DNA of 64,000 nt from Octopus vulgaris (lineage: Eukaryota): positions 40,052,001-40,116,000 of the forward strand of contig OX597829.1 in NCBI GenBank assembly GCA_951406725.2. Reading direction: 5' to 3'. Positions 34,690 through 61,312 of the stretch are shown here, one piece after another. The notes below the pieces were generated by a model that saw only the letters and a program-made list of their open reading frames with translations, was not told the DNA's origin and did no database searches. How positions within the stretch are numbered: position 1 is the first letter of the stretch; each line of letters begins with the position of its first letter. Position numbers and translations under genes: made by a program.

Positions 34690-36701
34690 ATAAATAAATG
34701 GAGTTTAACGCAGGTGTAAATCAAATATTTTTACTTTCGACACATGTTTCGAAAATTCCACTGATACTATTCAAAAGAATAAATGGTATAAACAATGCAA
34801 TCTTCTCTTCAGGAAAGTGAAAAAAACGAAACTCGTCAATCAGACATTTTAGCAAAAAATGATGGATTTGTATAGCGATAGACAGAACGCTATTAATATT
34901 GTTTAAAAAAACGTTATATGATATAACGTCATAAGTAGCTAACAGAAAGAGTAGGGATACCAATAGTGAATGTTAAATATAAAGGAAATTAAAGTTTAAA
35001 TTACATATAATGATAGAGACTACTTATATGCACTAAATGTGTGTTTTTGCCAATGCTTACATCTGTATGCTCACTCTATAACCGTGTTTACTAGAGTATT
35101 TTTTAGAAAAAATAATGAAAAATAGCTCAGAATTGTAGAGAAGACAGAATTCCTTGCCTTTGTCATAAGGTATCGAAATTGAGAGGATCAACCATTCTAA
35201 ATGAAATTGTTCATTGTGGTCTTTTAAATCCCAAATCAGTTTGCTGAGACCGGTACTATTACGTTTATTTCTATTCCCTAAATGTTGAGTAATGGATAGA
35301 AATTCTTTTAGATAACTCTAACGATGTGCTTCCAATGTAAAATCGTACTTTATTACGAGTACTGATTATACACTGGTATATAGAATTTTTAATCTTTGAG
35401 TTACTTGACATAAACTTAATTCTATTGGAATTGACTTCACATACAATAACCTTGTTATTAATATTTCTAGAGGGTTGGATGGTATTAGCTAAATTAATGC
35501 TAGTATTAGTAAATGTATTAATATTTAACAGTTTGTTATTGTGTGAAGAGATAATTTGTAAAAGATTTTTTTGTGTTTGAAAAACCGATCTTAACCGTAT
35601 GTGAATTGATAAAAGAATAATATCTAGACTGTTTTGGAAAATTCGAAACAGCAGTGGGAGATTAGATTTAATTTGTCTCCCGTAAGGAATTATTAACCAA
35701 ATATTTTTACTAGTATTCATAGCGTAATTATTTTTGAAGGTGTTATATTTACTTTTAGAACGATAATAGGAGATTAAATAAGGGTTATCTGCCTTCATTC
35801 GCTTTGTATCGGTGCGTAAGTTATGTTTGTTATCAATAATTCTTTTACGACTAGAAATCTTATCTACACCATTGAATTTACAATTAGACTGAGCAGAATC
35901 AATGTAGAAAATTTTCTCTGTATAACCTGTTTTAATTAAGGCAGAGTTATAGAATTCAGCGTTATTATTGAAAATATCAACATTAGCAGATAATTTAGAT
36001 AATCTAAATGAAATATTCTTAACTAAGTTCTTAGTAATTGCTCTAGGATGATTACTAAATTTGCTAATGTACTTAAGATTGGTCAATGGTTTTCAATATG
36101 GGAAGTAAGAGTCACTGTGTAAATTAAGCGTAATATTTAAAAAGTTGGCCTTCGTCATATCGTCATCAAAAACGATTTTTAAGCCCATTCTACTGAAAAA
36201 ATTAACTAAACTATTCTTAACTTTTTGTACCTTTTGGTTGGAAACATTTTGGAGGTAAAGTAACCAATCATCACATAAATGTTAGGGAACTCTTCTGCCA
36301 TTTCAAAAAGAATATATATACAGACCAAATCAGCTATCTGTGCTGAATCAGAACTTCCCATTGGTATATCGAAACTACCTGGTGTGTCTTTACAGACCCA
36401 CAACTTATCATCAAATTTAATAATAGATCTTCTGGCTGCCACCACAACATTAATTTCTTCTCGGGTGAGACCAGCTTCGTTATGAGCAAGCCAAAGTGCC
36501 TTATTAAGTACTATTGGATTGATAGATGAATAAAAATTGGAAATATCAAACTGGATAAACTTAGTACTCACCTTATTGGTAATAGAACTAAACCAGTCAA
36601 CTACTTCAAACGAATTAGTTCATAAACTAAGTTTTAATGTTCTAATTAAATTAGGAATATATTTATCTAGTATATTTTTACTAAGGATACCGATGTCAGA
36701 G

Positions 36702-37689: not shown

Positions 37690-39875
37690 TCTTTCGCAGT
37701 GTTCAGAGTTGGCACTCTAAGTACCTTGGTAGAGAAAGCAATTAAGAGTATGAAGACAGGAAAAGCCCATCAGAAATCACTGCAGAGTTGCTCAAAATAT
37801 CTGGCAGTATCGGCTATAGTCTAGTCACCCGTATAGTTAACCAGGTGATACACGAAGGAGTCATACTCAATGACTGGTGTAGCAGCACTATAGTCAACTG
37901 CTACAAACGAAAAAGTGACGTTTTAGATACAAAAATTACAGAGGTATCAAGTTGTTAGATCAGGTAATGAAGGTCACGGAGAGGGTCATAGCCCAACTGT
38001 TTAGGGAGAGAGTCAGTTTAGATGAGATGTAGTTTGGGTTCGTGCCAGGGAAAAGCACCACTGATGCAATATTTCTGATAAGACAGCTGCAGGAGAAATA
38101 CCTGGCCAAAGATAAATCTCTGTACCTGGCTTTTGTTGACATGGAGATAGACTTTGATAGGACCCCCGATCCATTATCTGGTGGTCAATGAGGAAACTAG
38201 GGATAGATGAATGGTTAGTGAGAGCTGTGCAAGCCATATACAGGGACGCTGTCAGTAAGGTGAGGGTTGGCAACGAGTACAGTGAAGAATTCCAGGTGGA
38301 GGTAGGGGTCCACCAAGGTTCAGTCCTTAACCCCCTCCTTTTTATCATAGTCCTCCAGGCAATAACAAAGGAATTCAAGACAGGATGCCTCTGGGAGCTC
38401 CTCTATGCTGATGACCTTGCCCTAATTGCTGAGTTACTATAAGAATTAGAGGAGAAGTTTCAGGTGTGGAAACAAGGGTTAGAATCGAAGGGCCTTAGAG
38501 TCAACCGAGCTAAAACCAAAGTCCTAATAAGTAGGAAGGCAGGCAAACCACAAATCCCTTCAGGTAGATGACCCTGCTCAATCTGTAGAAAAGGTGTAGG
38601 TAGAAACTCTATAAGATGTACCCAGTGTAAGCTATGGACACATAAGAGGGCAGCAATGTCAAAGGAAGGCTAACTGGGAAGATAGTTTTTGTATGTGGCA
38701 GATGCTCAGGAGCAATAAACACTGAAAATGTGCAGAGAACAACTTCCGCCACATTCCAAGGAGAAAAACTAGAAAGTGTAGCTGCTAGAATAAGAATAGC
38801 TTGGGCAAAGTTCAGAGAGCTCTTACCTCTGCTGGTGACAAAGAGCCTCTCGCTCAGAGTAAAAGGTAGACTGTATGACGCATGTGTACGAACAGCCATG
38901 CTACATGGCAGTGAAACATGGGCCGTGACTGCTGAAGACATGTGTAAGCTCGCAAGGAATGAAGCCAGTATGATCCGATGGATATGTAATGTCAGTGTGC
39001 ACACTCGACAGAGTGTAAGTACCTTGAGAGAAAAGTTGGACTTAAGAAGCGTTCGATGTGGTGTGCAAGAGAGACGACTACACTCGTATGGTAATGTGGC
39101 GAGAATTGATGAGAATAGCTGTGTGGAAAAGTGCCACATCCTAGCGGTTGAGGGAACCTGTGGAAGAAGTAGACCAAGGAAGACCTGAGATGAAGTGGTG
39201 AAGCACAACCTTCGAACATTAGGCCTCACCGAGACAGTGACTAGTGACCGACATTTTTGGAAATATGCTGTGCTTGAGAAGACCCAGCAAGCCAAATGAG
39301 ACCATAACCTCGTGGCCTATGCCAGGGTGTAACCAGGCCACTTATGCGTACATTTCCTTCATTGGACACTAAACTCTGCTTATGAAGACCTATTGAGGCA
39401 AGTGAAATCGAAATCGAAATCAAATTCGATGACTGGAATCCGTGTTAGTGGGTTGCAAAGAGCACTATACGAGTGTGATCGTTGACAGAGCGGCTAACCG
39501 GCTTCCGTGCTGGTGGCACATAAAAAGCACCATTCGAGTGTGACTGTTACCAGCGTCGCCCTATTGCTGGTAGCACGTGAAAAAACATTCGAGCGAGGTC
39601 ATTACCAGTGCCGCTACACTGGCTCCTGTGCAGGTGGCACGTAAAAAAACACCATTTGAGCGTGGTCGTTTCCAGTACCGCCTGACTGTCCCTCGTACCG
39701 GTGGCACGTAAAAGCACCCACTATACTCTCGGAGTGGTTGGCGTTAGGAAGGGCATCCAGCTGTAGAGACTTTGCCAGATCAGATTGGAGCAGGGCGCAG
39801 CCATCTGGTTCGCCAGCCACAGTCAAATCGTCCAACCCATGCTAGCATGGAAAGCGGACGTTAAACGATGATGAT
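37690..39875 (+). mobile_element. 5'-truncated RTE-group LINE: RT pseudogene plus long 3' UTR
   Basis: GFVPGKSTTDAIF, AFVDME, GVHQGSVLNPLLF, LLYADDL, Cys-rich insert, LHGSETW, GRSRPRKT; repeated 3' UTR ending in (GAT)n. Confidence 0.9.
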
Positions 39876-40369: not shown

Positions 40370-40985
40370 AAACTTAGATAAACTTAGATATGTTTCGACT
40401 AAAGATTGGTCCAGGCCATGTCTAACTTAATAGCACCACCTGATAGGATTATGCGAATCCTGTTTAAGGCAAGTTTTGTTCAAGTAGTGAGTTCTTGTTG
40501 GGTGAGTTGTATCCAATTATGGGTGGTTTATCTAGTATTCTTTGAAGGAATCTATCCAGACTCCGTTTAAAGTTGATGGGATCCTTTTCCTCTTTGATCT
40601 CCTTCGGGACAATGTTAAATAGGGCAGGGCCTGTTGAGGAAAAGAAATTATATTGCAGTGTACATGTATGTTGTGATCTTGAACTGGACAGGGGTCGTAT
40701 GGCCCGTGGTCCCAGTCTTGGATGAACCTTGAAGCTAATGATAAGGTCGTTTGGGCAAAGTTGGCGGTATATTCTCCACATCGTACAAATGATGTACCGC
40801 TCACAGCGACACTGGAGGGAGTAAAGTTTCAAGGCTTTAAGGCGATCCCAATAATCGAGAGCGGCCATGCGGTCAATTCGTTTAGTGAGTGCCCTCTGGG
40901 GAGACTCAATTCTGGAGATGTTTTGTCTTGTATGGGGAGACCACAGTGGGCAGCAGTATTCAAGGTGTGGCCGTACAAGGGAGGA
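40370..40985 (-). mobile_element. CR1/L2-group LINE 3' fragment
   Basis: SLVRPHLEYCCPLWSPH...YWDRLKALKLYSLQ; tail of repeated ATCTAAGTTT. Confidence 0.85.
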
Positions 40986-40997
40986 AAATATATATAT

Positions 40998-41162
40998 ATT
41001 AAGGGTGCTGGAATGCCAACATCTAGAAGCTAGAAGTAGATGCCAAATATCTATAATCCACTCTAAATTTGTTCTCAACTTACAACCCAAGTCTTCATGT
41101 GGATTATAGACATTTGACATCTACTTCTAGTGTATAGGTGTTGGCATTCAAGCACCCTTAAT
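40998..41162. repeat. Inverted repeat with ~60-bp arms
   Basis: ATTAAGGGTGCTGGAATGCCAACA / TGTTGGCATTCAAGCACCCTTAAT. Confidence 0.8.
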
Positions 41163-47423: not shown

Positions 47424-50400
47424 TGTCAGGTCTCCGCTTGGAGCTACTGGTAACATGTAACCCAGTACAACCTGTTACATGGTCGGGTCGTTGGCGACTA
47501 AACTGGCAACCTCACCAAGATTTCTTGGTGAGGGTGATTTGGACACCCAGCAGGACTAAAAACAAAACCTGTCAAAGGGCAGAGGAACTCTCTCATGAGT
47601 CAATGGCCATCCAAAATCCGGAGTGGAGCCCCTAAGGCGGTTAGATTGCGCCATGCGTGCCACCTTCCGGCAGCTCCTGCATCCTGGTCTACCCCCAGCC
47701 GTCTTGACTTTGTCTTGCCACTGGATACGGCGCACCAGGACGAGAGAGTGAGGCTGATCCTGCGCAAGTCACCCTCACTATAATCCAAGTCACGCGCATG
47801 TCATGACATCATGACACCATCACAAAGTCCTGTGGCGATGGAGAAACGGCGAAGTAGCAGGTGAGGATACACTGGGAGCTGCAGTCGTGAACCCACACAC
47901 AGGCGGCTCAAGACATGTGGTCGCCCCTCACTGAACTGAGGCAGCAGTGGAGTCCGGCAGCCTCCTGAGTGACCGAGCAGCCCTCTTCAGGATCGCTCTG
48001 CTCGCCTCCCCAGCATGAGGACGGGGCTAGAAAAGGTTGCCCTAAACATAGCCTGCCTCACCTCACCCTGGTCAGCAAACCGCGGCTGGCGGGGATCCTT
48101 TCCAAGCGGTCGAAACAAAGAAAGAAAACAAACAAAGGTGCTCACTTTCGCAACTTGGAACGTGAGAACTCTGCTTGACAACACCAAAGCGGACAGACCA
48201 GAGAGACGAACTGCCCTGGTGGCCAGAGAACTGAGCCGATACAATGTCGATATCGCAGCACTGAGCGAGACTCGCCTTGCGGACAAAGGCCAGCTGACAG
48301 AGACAGGCGGCGGCTACACTTTCTTTTGGAGTGGTCGCAGCAGCGAAGAGCGTCGTGAGGCTGGTTTGGTTTTGCCATCAAGTCAGTACACGTGCGGAAA
48401 CTGGAAAGCTCCCCCGAGGTTATCAACGATCGGCTGATGAAGATGCAGCTCCCACTTGGAAACAAGACTAGTGCGACCAACATCAGCGCTTACGCCCCCA
48501 CCATGACCAACCCTGAAGAAGTTAAGGACAGGTTCTATGAGGAACTCGACTCCCTCATCACGTCAGCCCAGCCTGGGAAGCTCATCCTCCTTGGGGATTT
48601 TAACGCCCGTGTCGGGACTGACCACCAAGCCTGGCATCGCGTACTGGGAAAGCAAGGAATCGGAAAGTGCAACAACAACGGGCAGCTCCTCCTGCGTGCG
48701 TCTGCCTCTCATGATCTTACCATCGCCAACACCTTGTTCCGTCTGCCAACACGCAACAAGACATCATGGATGCATCCACGCTCCAAACACTGGCATCTGA
48801 TAGATTACGTCATCGTCAGGGCGAAAGACAGGCGGGACATGAGACTGGTCAAAGCCATGTGCGGAGCTGATTGCTGGACGGACCATCGCCTCATCATCTC
48901 CAGGATGGATTTCTACATCCGACCTAAGAGAAGACCACAGGGTCAGAAAGTGACGAGGAAGCTTAACATCACGAAATTAAAGAACCAGCTGACTGCACAA
49001 GATCTCCAGTCACGTATGGACAGCAAGCTGTTGGACATTCGGAATGACCAGTCCAGCATCGATGAGCAGTGGGAATCATTCAGGGACACGGTTCATTCCA
49101 TCGCCCTTGAAACTCTAGGCCAAGTTACGAGGAACCACCAGGACTGGTTCGACGAAAACGACCAGGAAATCCAAAAGCTCCTGGAAGAGAAACGCCGTCT
49201 GCTGCGGGCTCACCAAAATGACACCACCTGCACGGCAAAGAAGGCTGCTTTCAACAACATTCGCAGCACAGTCCAGGCAAAACTCCGCCTCATGCAAGAC
49301 GCATGGTTAAGCGCCAAGGCGGATGAGATTCAGGGATACGCAGACAAACACGACACCAAGAAATTCTACGAGGCGCTGAAAGCTATCTATGGACCACAGT
49401 TCTCCTTTGGATCAACCCCCCTGCTCAGCTCGGATGGAACCTCACTCCTGACTAACAAGAAACTGATCCTGGAGAGACGGGCGGAGCATTTCAACATCGT
49501 GCTCAACCGACCAGCCCAGATCAACGAGGAAGCCATCGCACGACTCCCCCAGGTGCCGACAAACCACGAGCTGGCTGTTCCCCCTGCAGTCGAGGAAGTG
49601 AGCAGAGCCATCAAAAAAATGTCCACCGGCAAAGCTCCAGGCTCTGACGCCATCCCTGCAGAGGTGTTCAAGTCGGGCGGCCCCACCAAGCCTGTTCCAG
49701 TCGATGTGGGACAGAAAACAACTCCCTCAAGATTTCCGGGACGCAACAATCGTCCACATTTATAAACGGAAAGGAGATCGGCAGTCCTGCGACAACCACC
49801 GAGGAATCTCCCTCTTGTCCATAGCAGGCAAGATCCTGGCCCGAGTCCTGCTTGACCGCCTTCTGGAACACTTGGAGCAAGGCCTTCTCCCTGAGAGCCA
49901 GTGTGGCTTCCGTGCGGGTCGAGGGACCACTGACATGATATTCGCCGCCCGCCAGCTCCAGGAGAAATGCATGGAGCAGCACCTTGACCTCTGCATGACT
50001 TTTGTTGACCTCACCAAGGCTTTCGATACAGTCAGTCGGGAGGGACTATGGAAGGTCATGGGAAAATTTGGTTGCCCCAGCAAATTTATTGCAATTGTCC
50101 GCCAGTTCCACGACGGAATGACAGCCAGAGTCCTTGAAGACGGCAACTCATCTGAAGCCTTCCAGGTGACCAACGGAGTCAGGCAGGGCTGTGTCCTGGC
50201 CCCAACACTGTTCAGCATCATGTTCTCGTCAATGCTGTCCGACGCCTTCAGGGACTGCAAGTCCGGTATCGACATCAAGTACAGGACAGACGGGAAACTT
50301 TTCAACTCCAGAAGATTGCAGGCCGTCACAAAGGTAAGGGAGACAGTCGTCAGAGACTTTCTCTTTGCTGACGACTGCGCCCTTAATGCAATCGATGAGC

Positions 50401-50624
50401 AGGAGATGCAGCTCGGGATGGACAGGTTCTCATCAGCCTATGACAACTTCGGTCTCACCATCAGTGCCAAGAAAACCGAAGTGATGTTTCAGCCAGCCCC
50501 CGGCAAACAATACCATGAACCTCAGATAAAGGTGAACGGACGGATCCTACGAGCGGTGGAAAACTTCACCTACCTGGGCAGCATTCTCTCCTGCAATGCC
50601 AACATAGATGCTGAAATCATCAAC
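47424..50624 (+). mobile_element. Young RTE-clade LINE with 5' UTR, 3' end lost
   Basis: About 600-bp GC-rich leader, then a single APE-RT frame; abrupt junction to SINE A. Confidence 0.95.
48015..50624 (+). pseudogene. RTE endonuclease-reverse transcriptase, two frameshifts (~48370, ~49690)
   Basis: TWNVRTL, IAALSETR, GDFNA, IDY, TDH; KAPGSD, QCGFR, FVDLTKAFD, GVRQGCVLAP, LFADD, FTYLG. Confidence 0.95.
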
Positions 50625-50870
50625 ATCGGTTGTCAAGCAATGCTAGGGGGGACAAACACAGACACACAAACATACACGCACACAGACATATATATATACA
50701 TATATACGACAGGCTTCTTTCAGTTTCCGTCTACCAAATCCACTCACAAGGCATTGGTCGGCCCGGGGCTATAGCAGAAGACACTTGCCCAAGATGCCAC
50801 GCAGTGGGACTGAAACCGGAACCATGCGGTTGGTTAGCAAGCTACTTACCACACAGCCACTCCTGCGCCT
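50624..50870 (-). mobile_element. SINE family A, 5' half
   Basis: Match to 275-520. Confidence 0.9.
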
Positions 50871-58975: not shown

Positions 58976-59368
58976 TCATCATCATCATCATCGTTTAACG
59001 TCCACTTTCCATGCTAGCATGGGTTGGACGGTTTGACTGTTGGCTGGCGAACAAGATGGCTGCACCAGGCTCCAGTCTTGATCTGGTAGAGTTTCTACAG
59101 CTGGATGCCCTTCCTAACGCCAACCACTCCGAGAGTGTAGTGGGTGCTTTTACGTGCCCCTGACACAGGGGCCAGTCAGGTGGTACTGGCAACGACCTCG
59201 CTTGAACCTTTTTACACATGCCAACGGCACAGGTGCCAGTAAGGCGATGGCTGGTAACGATTCCACTCGAATGGTGCCTCTTACAAGCCACCGGCACGGA
59301 AGCCAGTTAGCCGCTCTGGCAACGATCACGCTTAGATGATGCTCTTAGCACCCCACTGGCACCCTACT
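58976..59368 (-). mobile_element. 5'-truncated LINE 3' tail
   Basis: Matches 39480-39875. Confidence 0.85.
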
Positions 59369-59627
59369 AAATAATATATATATATATATATATACAGAGA
59401 GAGAGAGAGAGAGAGAGAGATTGGTATACATATATATGCATGCATATGTCCCTTTGGAGTAGGATATTGTGCATCTTGTTGTGTTGCACCAATCAGTGCA
59501 AGCTGTCTCACTAGAGGATGTCTCACGGGATATACTGAGTTTTTCTTGACATGTTGTTTTTGCTAGTTGTACATTGTGTTTTAATTGACATAGAAATAGA
59601 CATTATACCCAAAGTCTGAGTGGTTAC

Positions 59628-59680
<53 letters not shown>

Positions 59681-59685
<5 letters not shown>

Positions 59686-60440
59686 GATATTAGCCAACCG
59701 AATATGGCTAGGGACAGGGCAGGGTGGTGGGGGTGTCACTGTTGCATTTAGCCCCAGGCGAACATCAACGTCACCAGATAGGCCTGACGCCATCACGGCG
59801 TCCTCGATCTTGCAAAGGGATTTCATCCACCAAGAAGCAGATACCACACACGGACCTAGGTTTCAAGGTGTATTGCCTATTATCAACGTGTGGTAGGCAT
59901 CGCTTCTCGATGAACGACCAACTGTGCAAGATATATATAAGGATTTTCAAGTAAATACATTTACTGATTTCGAAAATCTGTTCGACAGCAATAATAATTC
60001 TCTAAATGAGATATAGACAGTGACTGCTCCGTAATATAAGGGATATTAGCCAACCGAATATGGCTAGGGACAGGGCAGGGTGAGAGAATTATTATTGCTG
60101 TCGAACAGATTTTCGAAATCAGTAAATGTATTTACTTGAAAATCCTTATATATATCTTGTACAGTTGGTCGTTCATCGAGAAGCGATGCCTACCACACGT
60201 TGATAATAGGCAATACACCTTGAAACCTAGGTCCGTGTGTGGTATCGGCTTCTTGGTGGATGATCTCCCTTTGCAAGATAGAGGACGCCGTGATGGCGTC
60301 AGGCCTATCTGGTGACGTTGATGTTCGCCTGGGCTAAATGCAACAGTGACACCCCCACCACCCTGCCCTGTCCCTAGCCATATTCGGTTGGCTAATATCC
60401 CTTATATTACGGAGCAGTCACTGTCTATATCTCATTTAGA
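59681..60440. mobile_element. Retrozyme/pLTR-like element: 356-bp unit, 46-bp head repeat, then one inverted permuted monomer, in (TA)n
   Basis: TAAGGGATATTAGCC at 59681 and 60037; 60083-60440 is the reverse complement of one full unit. Confidence 0.85.
60194..60239 (+). ncRNA. Candidate type-I hammerhead, U3:A8 core (mirror copy ~59847-59892, minus)
   Basis: CACACG TTGATAA T AGG CAATACA CCT T GAAA CCTAGG TC CGTGTG. Confidence 0.7.
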
Positions 60441-60452
60441 TATATATATTAT

Positions 60453-60516
<64 letters not shown>

Positions 60517-60832
60517 TCTCTTATTCTTTTATCTCTCTTTTTGTTTCAGTCATTTGACTGCGGTCATGCTGAAGCACCACCTTTATTTGAACAAATAGAT
60601 CCCAGGACTTGTTCTATGTAATCTATCATTCTCTTTTGCTGAACCGCTAGGTTACGGGGACATAAACACATCAATGTTGGTTGTCAAGCAATGTGGAGAG
60701 ACAAACACAGTCACACAAACACATACATAATATATATATATAGTCACACAAACACATACATATATATATATATATATATTATGTATGTGTTTGTGTGACT
60801 GTGTTTGTCCCTCTACATCGCTTGACACCAAC

Positions 60833-60877
<45 letters not shown>

Positions 60878-60908
60878 TACATATATACATATATACATAC
60901 ATATATAC

Positions 60909-60976
<68 letters not shown>

Positions 60977-61012
60977 GTATATATATATATATATGTATAT
61001 ATATATGTATGT

Positions 61013-61312
61013 GGAGGCGCAATGGCCCAGTGATTAGGGTAGCGGACTCGCTGTTGTAGGATTGCGGTTTCGATTCCCAGACCGGGTGCTGTGAGTGTTT
61101 ATTGAGCGAAAACACCTAAAGCTCCACGTGGCTCCAGTAGGTGGTGGTGGTGATCCCTGCTGTACTCTTTCGCCACAACTTTCTCTCACTCTTTCTTCTG
61201 TTGGCCTGCTCGCTTAGCCAGTGGGATGGCGTCATTTGAAGGCTAAAACAAGCGCATTGTGACCAGCGATGTGTAGCAACATCAGATAGCCTGGTCAGTC
61301 ATGGTGACGGTG
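61013..61312 (+). mobile_element. tRNA-derived SINE family D
   Basis: GGAGGCGCAATGGCCCAGTGATTAGG...GGTTTCGATTCCC; inverted copy at 62055-62367. Confidence 0.85.

What the first reader, a model, noticed from the sequence alone, without database searches (positions are those of the whole stretch)
59681..60440. 356-nt circularly permuted, hammerhead-carrying unit: candidate retrozyme-like circular RNA element
Seen: a non-coding 356-bp unit (59681-60036) runs into a repeat of its own first 46 bp. An inverted copy (60083-60440) follows; it starts and ends at the same unit position (TCT, 60001-60003), so it is exactly one permuted monomer. Each monomer has one type-I hammerhead fold, and the element sits in (TA)n. 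Known: animal non-LTR retrozymes are hammerhead-bearing tandem repeats of this size that yield circular RNAs, and Penelope-like elements make tandem and inverted terminal repeats with minimal hammerheads. Inference: this was reverse-transcribed from a circular or multimeric self-cleaving RNA, plausibly using a Penelope-like RT. I cannot tell whether the family is already catalogued.
Basis: partly seen in the sequence, partly recalled or inferred. Interest (0 to 1): 0.85.

Follow-up and report, generated by a model that had tools for sequence, protein, structure and literature searches.

The report
Penelope-pasted hammerhead retrozyme, two arms
This is one copy of a widespread 356-letter repeat that codes for no long protein and carries a predicted self-cutting hammerhead RNA (a kind known in animals as a retrozyme), and its two back-to-back arms with a 33-letter extra piece on one end match the insertion mark of Penelope-like jumping genes, which likely copied it from an RNA that would be a closed ring.

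Summary
A 356-bp unit with no long ORF runs into a 49-bp exact repeat of itself and is joined head-to-head to an inverted copy (5 substitutions, 1 deletion), inside (TA)n. Each arm has a type-I hammerhead (U3-A8 core, palindromic stem III; 1 of 20,000 shuffles).

That is the 'tail' of Penelope-like elements (PLEs), which in vitro lies between two RT start sites. Each arm is longer than a hammerhead-cut linear monomer could template (405 vs 175; 358 vs 208 nt), so the template was a circle or an uncut multimer.

The family occurs in runs of four organism labels. Two guessed-RNA runs hold closed-loop contigs of 360 and 361 nt from a sister subfamily with compensatory changes. Cleavage, circles and the partner PLE are not shown.

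Verdict: a new member of a known kind (non-LTR retrozyme / non-autonomous PLE), and a clean footprint of a proposed mechanism. This scan noted 355-360-nt elements of this design elsewhere in this genome before.

The parts
59633..59682 (.). (TA)n target tract, left flank; its last 5 letters are shared with the 3' end of the left arm (microhomology)
59678..60082 (-). Left arm, hammerhead sense on minus strand: 405 nt = one 356-nt unit plus a 49-nt partial tandem; its 3' end lies 171-175 nt after the predicted cut and has no tail
59847..59892 (-). Type-I hammerhead of left arm (helix I 6 bp; U3-A8; U.U at base of helix II; palindromic stem/loop III); predicted cut after C17 at 59853
60001..60033 (-). 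Internal copy of the 33-nt tail, between the partial tandem and the unit body
60034..60082 (-). 49-bp partial tandem (pLTR-like 5'-truncated upstream copy), identical to 59678-59726
60083..60440 (+). Right arm, hammerhead sense on plus strand: 358 nt = one unit plus 2-3 nt; its 3' end lies 207-208 nt after the predicted cut and includes the tail
60194..60239 (+). Type-I hammerhead of right arm; predicted cut after C17 at 60233; 8-nt palindrome 60225-60232 can pair between two copies
60408..60440 (+). 33-nt terminal tail present on the right end only (32-37 nt given ambiguous A/T letters); holds the 3' strand of an 8-bp helix with a compensatory change in the family
   Evidence: PLE tail as described
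60441..60515 (.). (TA)n right flank with an ATT-rich patch 8 nt from the junction

Best explanation
This is a single insertion of a 356-nt hammerhead-bearing repeat with no long ORF (a non-LTR retrozyme), likely written into a (TA)n tract by the RT-endonuclease of a Penelope-like element that would have primed two cDNAs, one per DNA strand, on a likely circular unit-length RNA. Steps. (1) Inferred by analogy: a tandem source elsewhere is transcribed, the hammerheads cut as dimers, and the monomer is ligated to a circle. (2) Inferred from the PAc in vitro work: the PLE protein nicks both strands of AT-rich DNA and starts reverse transcription at two internal sites about 33 nt apart, here +175 and +208 from the cut. 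(3) Shown by the sequence, given that reading: one cDNA ran 405 nt and the other 358 nt, both through the cut site, so the template had no free end there. (4) Inferred: the two cDNA ends were joined bluntly head-to-head and filled in. This locus has only one hammerhead per orientation, so it is predicted to be a dead-end footprint, not a source of circles.
For: Geometry: partial tandem, inverted copy, 33-nt tail at one end only, (TA)n target; this is the PLE layout in Craig et al., who say the tail is not seen in TPRT of non-LTR elements. Frangieh et al. map the tail to the stretch between two RT start sites, on either strand, at AT-rich nicks. Arm lengths exceed what a cut monomer offers: 405 vs 175 and 358 vs 208 nt. 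The right arm stops within 3 nt of one full turn (about 2% if uniform over a turn; one event, post hoc). The unit folds as a circle at -110.5 kcal/mol, z -5.0, 0 of 200 shuffles, on the hammerhead strand, against z -1.7, 10 of 200, on the other. The monomer hammerhead fold is 7.1 kcal/mol above the local minimum, while the dimeric fold (-71.2) is below two monomer minima (-68.2). The family is multi-copy and diverse: 815, 338, 600 and 171 contigs laid in 4 of 4 runs of four organism labels, 29 of 29 bins covered in each. Two guessed-RNA runs from different studies each hold one contig spanning the whole unit, 391 and 390 nt; by coordinates each overlaps itself by 30 nt, giving closed loops of 361 and 360 nt that run through the cut site. 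That sister subfamily has C3-G8 for U3-A8, swaps two loop-3 letters while keeping the palindrome, and shows three pairs changed on both sides, one in the tail helix. A decayed RT + GIY-YIG PLE with its own hammerhead sits in (TA)n in the same window.
Against: No direct evidence for a circle: closed-loop contigs arise equally from tandem multimers (stated in 10.1101/2022.07.19.500677), the runs are only guessed to be RNA, and I could not see the full records. In PAc, hammerhead cleavage was not needed and uncut RNA was the main template in vitro. The left arm runs 49 nt past one turn, so a full turn is no hard stop. No autonomous partner was found: the PLE at 34.7-36.7 kb shares no blastn match with the unit. 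Of 33 listed differences in the sister subfamily, 11 break a predicted pair, against 6 in double changes, 2 compatible and 14 unpaired; 34 more differences and nearby indels could not be scored. The sister subfamily also has U4 changed to C. In Xenopus only 1 of 9 predicted retrozyme dimers cleaved in vitro. Tail ends were seen at this one locus only; fixed start sites across copies could not be tabulated without the genome. In three guessed-RNA runs 38-84% of laid contigs run on into unlike sequence; most visible ends are diverged homologues, but at least one is unidentified.
Confidence: 0.55

Rival explanations
1. Same element and same PLE enzyme, but the template was an uncut linear multimer transcribed from a tandem array; the hammerhead and circles play no part in this insertion.
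For: Explains both arms crossing the cut site equally well. PAc uses unprocessed RNA and hammerhead mutants insert normally in vitro. Closed-loop contigs fit multimers. The left arm passes a full turn without needing strand displacement.
Against: Gives no special reason for the right arm to end within 3 nt of one unit, unless the tail helix is a pause site. The arms share minority alleles (for example at 59737, 60022, 60031), and 5 of their 6 differences are private or rare in one arm, as expected from one template unit read twice, though a homogeneous array would do the same. Retrozymes of this size accumulate mainly as circles in mussel.
Confidence: 0.3
2. The arms are just the truncated pLTR ends of an autonomous, ORF-bearing Penelope-like element; there is no independent small element.
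For: Inverted pairs of hammerheads 100-700 bp apart and U3-A8 cores are described for truncated PLEs in Schistosoma. Unidentified run-on sequence exists in some contigs, and 109 loose ends were not shown.
Against: In the left arm the sequence after the tail leads straight back to the hammerhead with no ORF (longest frame 85 aa). Contigs cross that stretch in DNA runs (59870-59971 with 0 differences in X6; 59894-59978 in X1), and two unit-length closed contigs contain no room for an ORF. The share of DNA-run contigs that run on unlike is 0 in 4 of 4 runs.
Confidence: 0.08
3. A DNA-level product (fold-back repair or recombination of a satellite unit in a TA tract) or an assembly mirror, with no reverse transcription.
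For: Long inverted repeats next to microsatellites can arise or misassemble this way (general knowledge). No read spanning the central junction was examined.
Against: The arms differ at 6 places, so this is no mirror. The central junction is blunt and asymmetric. The two outer ends differ by a tail-sized piece. Folding bias and covariation are specific to the hammerhead strand.
Confidence: 0.05

Closest known systems
Metazoan non-LTR retrozymes (Cervera and de la Pena 2020, PMC7229834; read parts 2-4 of 6: results and discussion; supplement not readable), especially mussel 350-390-bp repeats and axolotl Rtz_353 with HHR_Amex2
   Same: Unit size, one type-I hammerhead per unit, no protein, GC under 50%, self-paired predicted circle; HHR_Amex2 also has a U.U at the base of helix II and a 2-bp helix III with a tetraloop, and cleaves better as a dimer.
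   Different: This locus is not a same-strand array of two or more hammerheads. The core is U3-A8. Circles and cleavage are untested. The parts I read propose PLE mobilisation but describe no tail or two-arm insertion for retrozymes.
Retrozymes as non-autonomous PLE derivatives (Li, Clavereau, Pollet 2026, bioRxiv 10.64898/2026.07.22.740005; read parts 1-3 of 5: abstract to discussion; supplements not seen)
   Same: Argues that animal retrozymes derive from PLE pLTRs and use PLE enzymes; describes solo monomer copies.
   Different: Evidence there is co-occurrence and pLTR homology in 35 genomes with no mollusc. Here the link is the insertion scar, and no pLTR homology to an autonomous element was found.
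Endonuclease-bearing PLE insertions (Craig et al. 2021, PMC8557442 / 10.1101/2021.04.23.441226, passages; Frangieh et al. 2024, PMC11167929, parts 1-2 of 4: main text)
   Same: Partial tandem, adjacent inverted 5'-truncated copy, 30-40-bp tail at one end, microsatellite or AT-rich target, hammerhead upstream of two internal RT start sites.
   Different: No RT or GIY-YIG ORF; each arm holds a whole unit rather than a truncated end; start sites lie 175 and 208 nt after the cut.
Non-autonomous Chlamys elements such as MRC1 (PMC8557442, passage)
   Same: ORF-less elements that form pLTRs and head-to-tail insertions using a PLE partner.
   Different: Green algal, no canonical hammerhead, with 3' similarity to an identified partner.
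PLE hammerheads, including the U3-A8 variant of Schistosoma Cercyon (Cervera and de la Pena 2014, PMC4209133; read parts 1-2 of 4; 2 supplement files searched, 1 not searchable)
   Same: U3-A8 covariation, palindromic helix III, predicted dimeric activity.
   Different: This motif has canonical helix sizes rather than the minimal PLE type with long helix II and short helix I.

Membership tests
Metazoan non-LTR retrozyme (family level) | One type-I hammerhead per unit | tested here: met
   One descriptor hit per arm, 1 of 20,000 shuffles; covariation in sister subfamily. No Rfam hit.
Metazoan non-LTR retrozyme (family level) | Unit of about 150-450 nt, non-coding, GC under 50% | tested here: met
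   356 nt, longest frame 85 aa, GC 45%
Metazoan non-LTR retrozyme (family level) | Head-to-tail organisation of units | tested here: met
   49-bp partial tandem at period 356; closed-loop contigs of 361 and 360 nt in 2 of 4 guessed-RNA runs. Longer arrays could not be counted.
'Active' retrozyme locus as defined by Li et al. 2026 | At least two consecutive same-strand units with complete hammerheads | tested here: not met
   One hammerhead per orientation. The locus is a solo-type copy, and I do not file it as an active locus.
Metazoan non-LTR retrozyme (family level) | Highly self-paired monomer | tested here: met
   Predicted only: circular MFE z -5.0, 63% paired
Metazoan non-LTR retrozyme (family level) | Accumulates as unit-length circular RNA | tested here: inconclusive
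   Closed-loop contigs cannot separate circle from multimer; RNA status is a guess
Metazoan non-LTR retrozyme (family level) | Self-cleavage in vitro | not testable with these tools
   Energy model favours the dimeric fold only
Metazoan non-LTR retrozyme (family level) | No primer-binding site or polypurine tract of LTR type | not tested
   No PBS/PPT search was run; the layout is not LTR-framed
PLE-type insertion | Partial tandem plus adjacent inverted 5'-truncated copy | tested here: met
   definition
PLE-type insertion | 30-40-bp tail at one end only | tested here: met
   33 nt (32-37) on the right end; one locus
PLE-type insertion | AT-rich or microsatellite target | tested here: met
   (TA)n on both sides; such tracts are very common in this window
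Autonomous PLE | ORF with RT and GIY-YIG endonuclease | tested here: not met
   not filed as an autonomous PLE
Non-autonomous derivative of a specific PLE | Sequence similarity to the pLTR of an autonomous partner | tested here: inconclusive
   No match to the one PLE in the window; no genome held
Viroid-like replicon | No genomic DNA counterpart; often ribozymes in both polarities | tested here: not met
   Integrated and abundant in DNA runs; hammerhead in one polarity only

The most novel reading that the evidence does not exclude
This insertion is a complete one-event record of how Penelope-like enzymes work: a dimeric RT-endonuclease primes both DNA strands from two fixed sites flanking a conserved helix on a ribozyme-made RNA circle, each RT goes round at least once, and the cDNAs are joined head-to-head. 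That would explain the inverted repeat, the pLTR and the tail in one step and show retrozyme circles to be true transposition intermediates.
Probability: 0.45. Interest if true: 0.72.

Novelty: new member of a known kind. Interest (0 to 1): 0.45.

Why it matters
Retrozyme copying from circles by PLE enzymes has been proposed since 2014-2020 and supported by homology in a 2026 preprint, but in the papers I read it is not shown. How PLEs make their tandem and inverted ends is called undefined by Craig et al. A 356-nt unit with two mapped start points is a small, defined template for testing both questions in vitro (circle versus multimer, one site per strand). The class itself is known, so a specialist would not be very surprised.

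Tried and rejected
Rfam: no hammerhead family at E up to 10 in 59000-61200 or 60090-60440; only chance microRNA hits on TA repeats. Exact-pattern scans found 0 loci in metagenome contigs and viral contigs. No whole genome is held, so copy ends, arrays and the partner PLE could not be tabulated. No RNA holder is on record (no evidence either way); only 8 of the 20 holding runs were laid. Contig depth was not used as copy number or expression. The absence of listed substitutions in 59840-59899 in DNA runs looked like hammerhead conservation, but other stretches as long also have none, so I give it no weight. The canonical-core subfamily makes up about 80% of depth at the hammerhead in X16 and X17 yet is not listed in the DNA runs; rejected as evidence of RNA enrichment because its short DNA contigs may fall under the 85% cut-off. 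Tail-to-(TA)n junctions were not visible among the loose ends shown. Pfam gave no useful hit for the PLE fragment. A literature search for U4C/C3U/G8A found nothing, so the effect of U4C is unknown to me. Sequence look-ups among the scan's findings returned nothing, so identity with the earlier 355-360-nt families is untested.

Full report
Observation. The stretch 59678-60440 lies between two (TA)n tracts. An exact repeat at period 356 covers 59678-59726 and 60034-60082 (49 bp, of which 5 are shared with the TA tract). From 60083 to 60440 an inverted copy aligns to the doubled unit with 5 substitutions and 1 deletion. It is 358 nt long, one unit plus 2-3 nt. No other copy lies in the window. 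The unit is 45% GC, and its longest stop-free frame, read round the circle on both strands, is 85 aa.

The ribozyme. Rfam found no hammerhead. A descriptor of my own, which allows C3-G8 or U3-A8, found three motifs in 64 kb on both strands: one per arm (C17 at 59853 minus and 60233 plus) and one at 34812-34739; 1 of 20,000 shuffles of the unit matched (descriptor written after seeing the motif). The motif has a 6-bp helix I that extends into a long rod, three pairs plus a U.U in helix II, and a 2-bp helix III whose 8-nt stem-loop is a perfect palindrome. Both oddities have precedents: U3-A8 in Schistosoma PLE hammerheads (PMC4209133), and a basal U.U in axolotl HHR_Amex2, which cleaves weakly alone and well as a dimer (PMC7229834). 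In the energy model the monomer hammerhead fold is 7.1 kcal/mol above the local minimum, while a hand-built dimeric fold (-71.2) beats two monomer minima (-68.2). This predicts cutting in multimers and silence in a monomer circle. It is a prediction only.

Strand-specific structure. Folded as a circle, the hammerhead strand gives -110.5 kcal/mol (z -5.0; 0 of 200 shuffles), the other strand -94.0 (z -1.7; 10 of 200).

The insertion scar. Read in hammerhead sense, the arms are joined head-to-head with a blunt junction, and both 3' ends face the TA flanks. The left end lies 171-175 nt after the predicted cut, the right end 207-208 nt after it. The right end thus carries a 33-nt extension (60408-60440). 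Craig et al. describe PLE insertions as partial tandems with an adjacent inverted 5'-truncated copy, a 30-40-bp tail at one end and a (TA)n bias, and note that the tail is not seen with non-LTR elements (passages). Frangieh et al. show in vitro that a PLE protein nicks and extends both strands at AT-rich sites and starts at two internal RNA sites, the tail being the stretch between them (main text). All these marks are present here in 760 bp. The tail holds the 3' strand of a predicted 8-bp helix (+111-118 with +185-192, mean pair probability 0.93), and the family's majority alleles change one of its pairs on both sides (59737 and 60022).

What template? A monomer cut by the hammerhead offers 175 nt upstream of the left start and 208 nt upstream of the right start, but the arms are 405 and 358 nt. 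The template was therefore continuous across the cut site: a ligated circle or an uncut multimer. The right arm ends within 3 nt of one full turn (about 2% by chance if uniform; a single, post hoc case), which leans to a circle. The left arm overshoots a turn by 49 nt, and PAc prefers uncut RNA in vitro, which keeps the multimer alive. I put the circle at a little under two to one.

The family. No genome is held. Twenty of 24 listed runs from 10 studies and four organism labels hold words of the unit; I laid 8. In four DNA or unlabelled runs, 815, 338, 600 and 171 contigs lay at 85% likeness, all 29 bins are covered, contigs cross the stretch between tail and hammerhead where an ORF would have to sit, and the share that runs on into unlike sequence is 0 (24 loose ends shown, nearly all recognisable variants, 109 not shown). 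In four guessed-RNA runs, X16 and X17, from different studies, each hold one contig spanning the unit (391 nt, 45 differences; 390 nt, 47 differences). From the laid coordinates and loose ends each overlaps itself by 30 nt, which is k-1 for 31-letter words, so they are closed loops of 361 and 360 nt that pass the cut site. Such contigs come from circles or from head-to-tail multimers alike (10.1101/2022.07.19.500677, passages), and the runs may be DNA. X11 and X19 show no such contig among the pieces listed. The sister subfamily in these loops has C3-G8 instead of U3-A8, two swapped loop-3 letters that keep the palindrome, and U4 changed to C. Of its 33 listed shared differences, 6 form three double changes that keep a pair, 2 keep a pair one-sidedly, 14 are unpaired and 11 break a predicted pair (two of these in a non-hammerhead helix); 34 further differences were not shown and indels lie next to several breaks. 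So covariation is clear for the core, loop 3 and three pairs, and mixed elsewhere.

Partner. A decayed PLE sits at about 34690-36700 on the minus strand in (TA)n. It has RT-like motifs in broken frames (motif labels recalled), a C-terminal part whose nearest Atlas clusters carry HTH_animal (55%) and GIY-YIG (27%), and its own hammerhead. It shares no blastn match with the unit, so it shows only that such enzymes exist in this genome.

Comparison. At family level this meets the testable features of a non-LTR retrozyme (size, single type-I hammerhead, non-coding, head-to-tail closure, self-paired circle). The locus itself fails the two-consecutive-hammerhead test of Li et al. and is a solo-type copy. 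It meets the marks of a PLE-made insertion but is no autonomous PLE. That retrozymes are non-autonomous PLE passengers is proposed in PMC7229834, anticipated in PMC4209133 and argued by homology in 10.64898/2026.07.22.740005. Searches for cephalopod retrozymes or for retrozymes with tails and inverted arms returned no such description in the listings or the passages read (included). The library lacks most subscription papers, the supplement of PMC7229834 could not be read, and I did not see the preprint's supplements or Repbase, where the family may be catalogued.

Earlier notes of this scan (AI notes, unchecked) describe 355-, 359- and 360-nt hammerhead elements with Penelope-type ends in other pieces of this genome, one with a U3-A8 core, and call the animal an octopus. 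I did not determine the organism; its repeats look cephalopod to me from recall. My reading was recorded before those look-ups, and I do not count them as support.

Verdict. Real; a new member of a known kind; interest 0.45 for being a compact, testable footprint of a proposed but unshown copying route.

Noticed in passing
window 34690-36700, minus strand: Decayed, 5'-truncated Penelope-like element (RT motifs in broken frames, thumb and GIY-YIG region) in (TA)n, with its own C3-G8 type-I hammerhead at 34812-34739 that has a long helix II insert and ends only about 50 nt before the 3' end.
   Followed up: partly
run X17 contig at window 59736; window 34690-34717: One contig joins the 3' end of the PLE family seen at 34.7 kb directly to the focal unit at 59736. 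Probably a nested insertion; a template switch between the two RNAs is not excluded. Single contig.
   Followed up: partly
run X19 contigs at window 59894: Two contigs switch from the antisense unit to sense tail sequence, another head-to-head junction whose second arm begins inside the tail, close to one full turn as in this locus.
   Followed up: no
window 59700-59780 and 59960-60030: These two segments attract the most contig depth, and a 414-nt contig in X19 shares only 59734-59778 with the unit: probably a module shared by several related families, and a possible handle for finding the autonomous partner.
   Followed up: no
sister subfamily in runs X16, X17 at window 59885: The closed-loop variant restores C3-G8 but has C at core position 4; effect on cleavage unknown.
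   Followed up: partly
window 47973-50774 plus; 38646-39188 plus; 40464-41120 minus: LINE fragments: an endonuclease + RT pair in overlapping frames (RTE-like by recall) and two C-terminal RT pieces.
   Followed up: no
window 60681-60830: A roughly 150-bp fold-back made of a short SINE-like end and its inverted copy around (TA)n; it gives the sub-threshold microRNA hits in Rfam.
   Followed up: no
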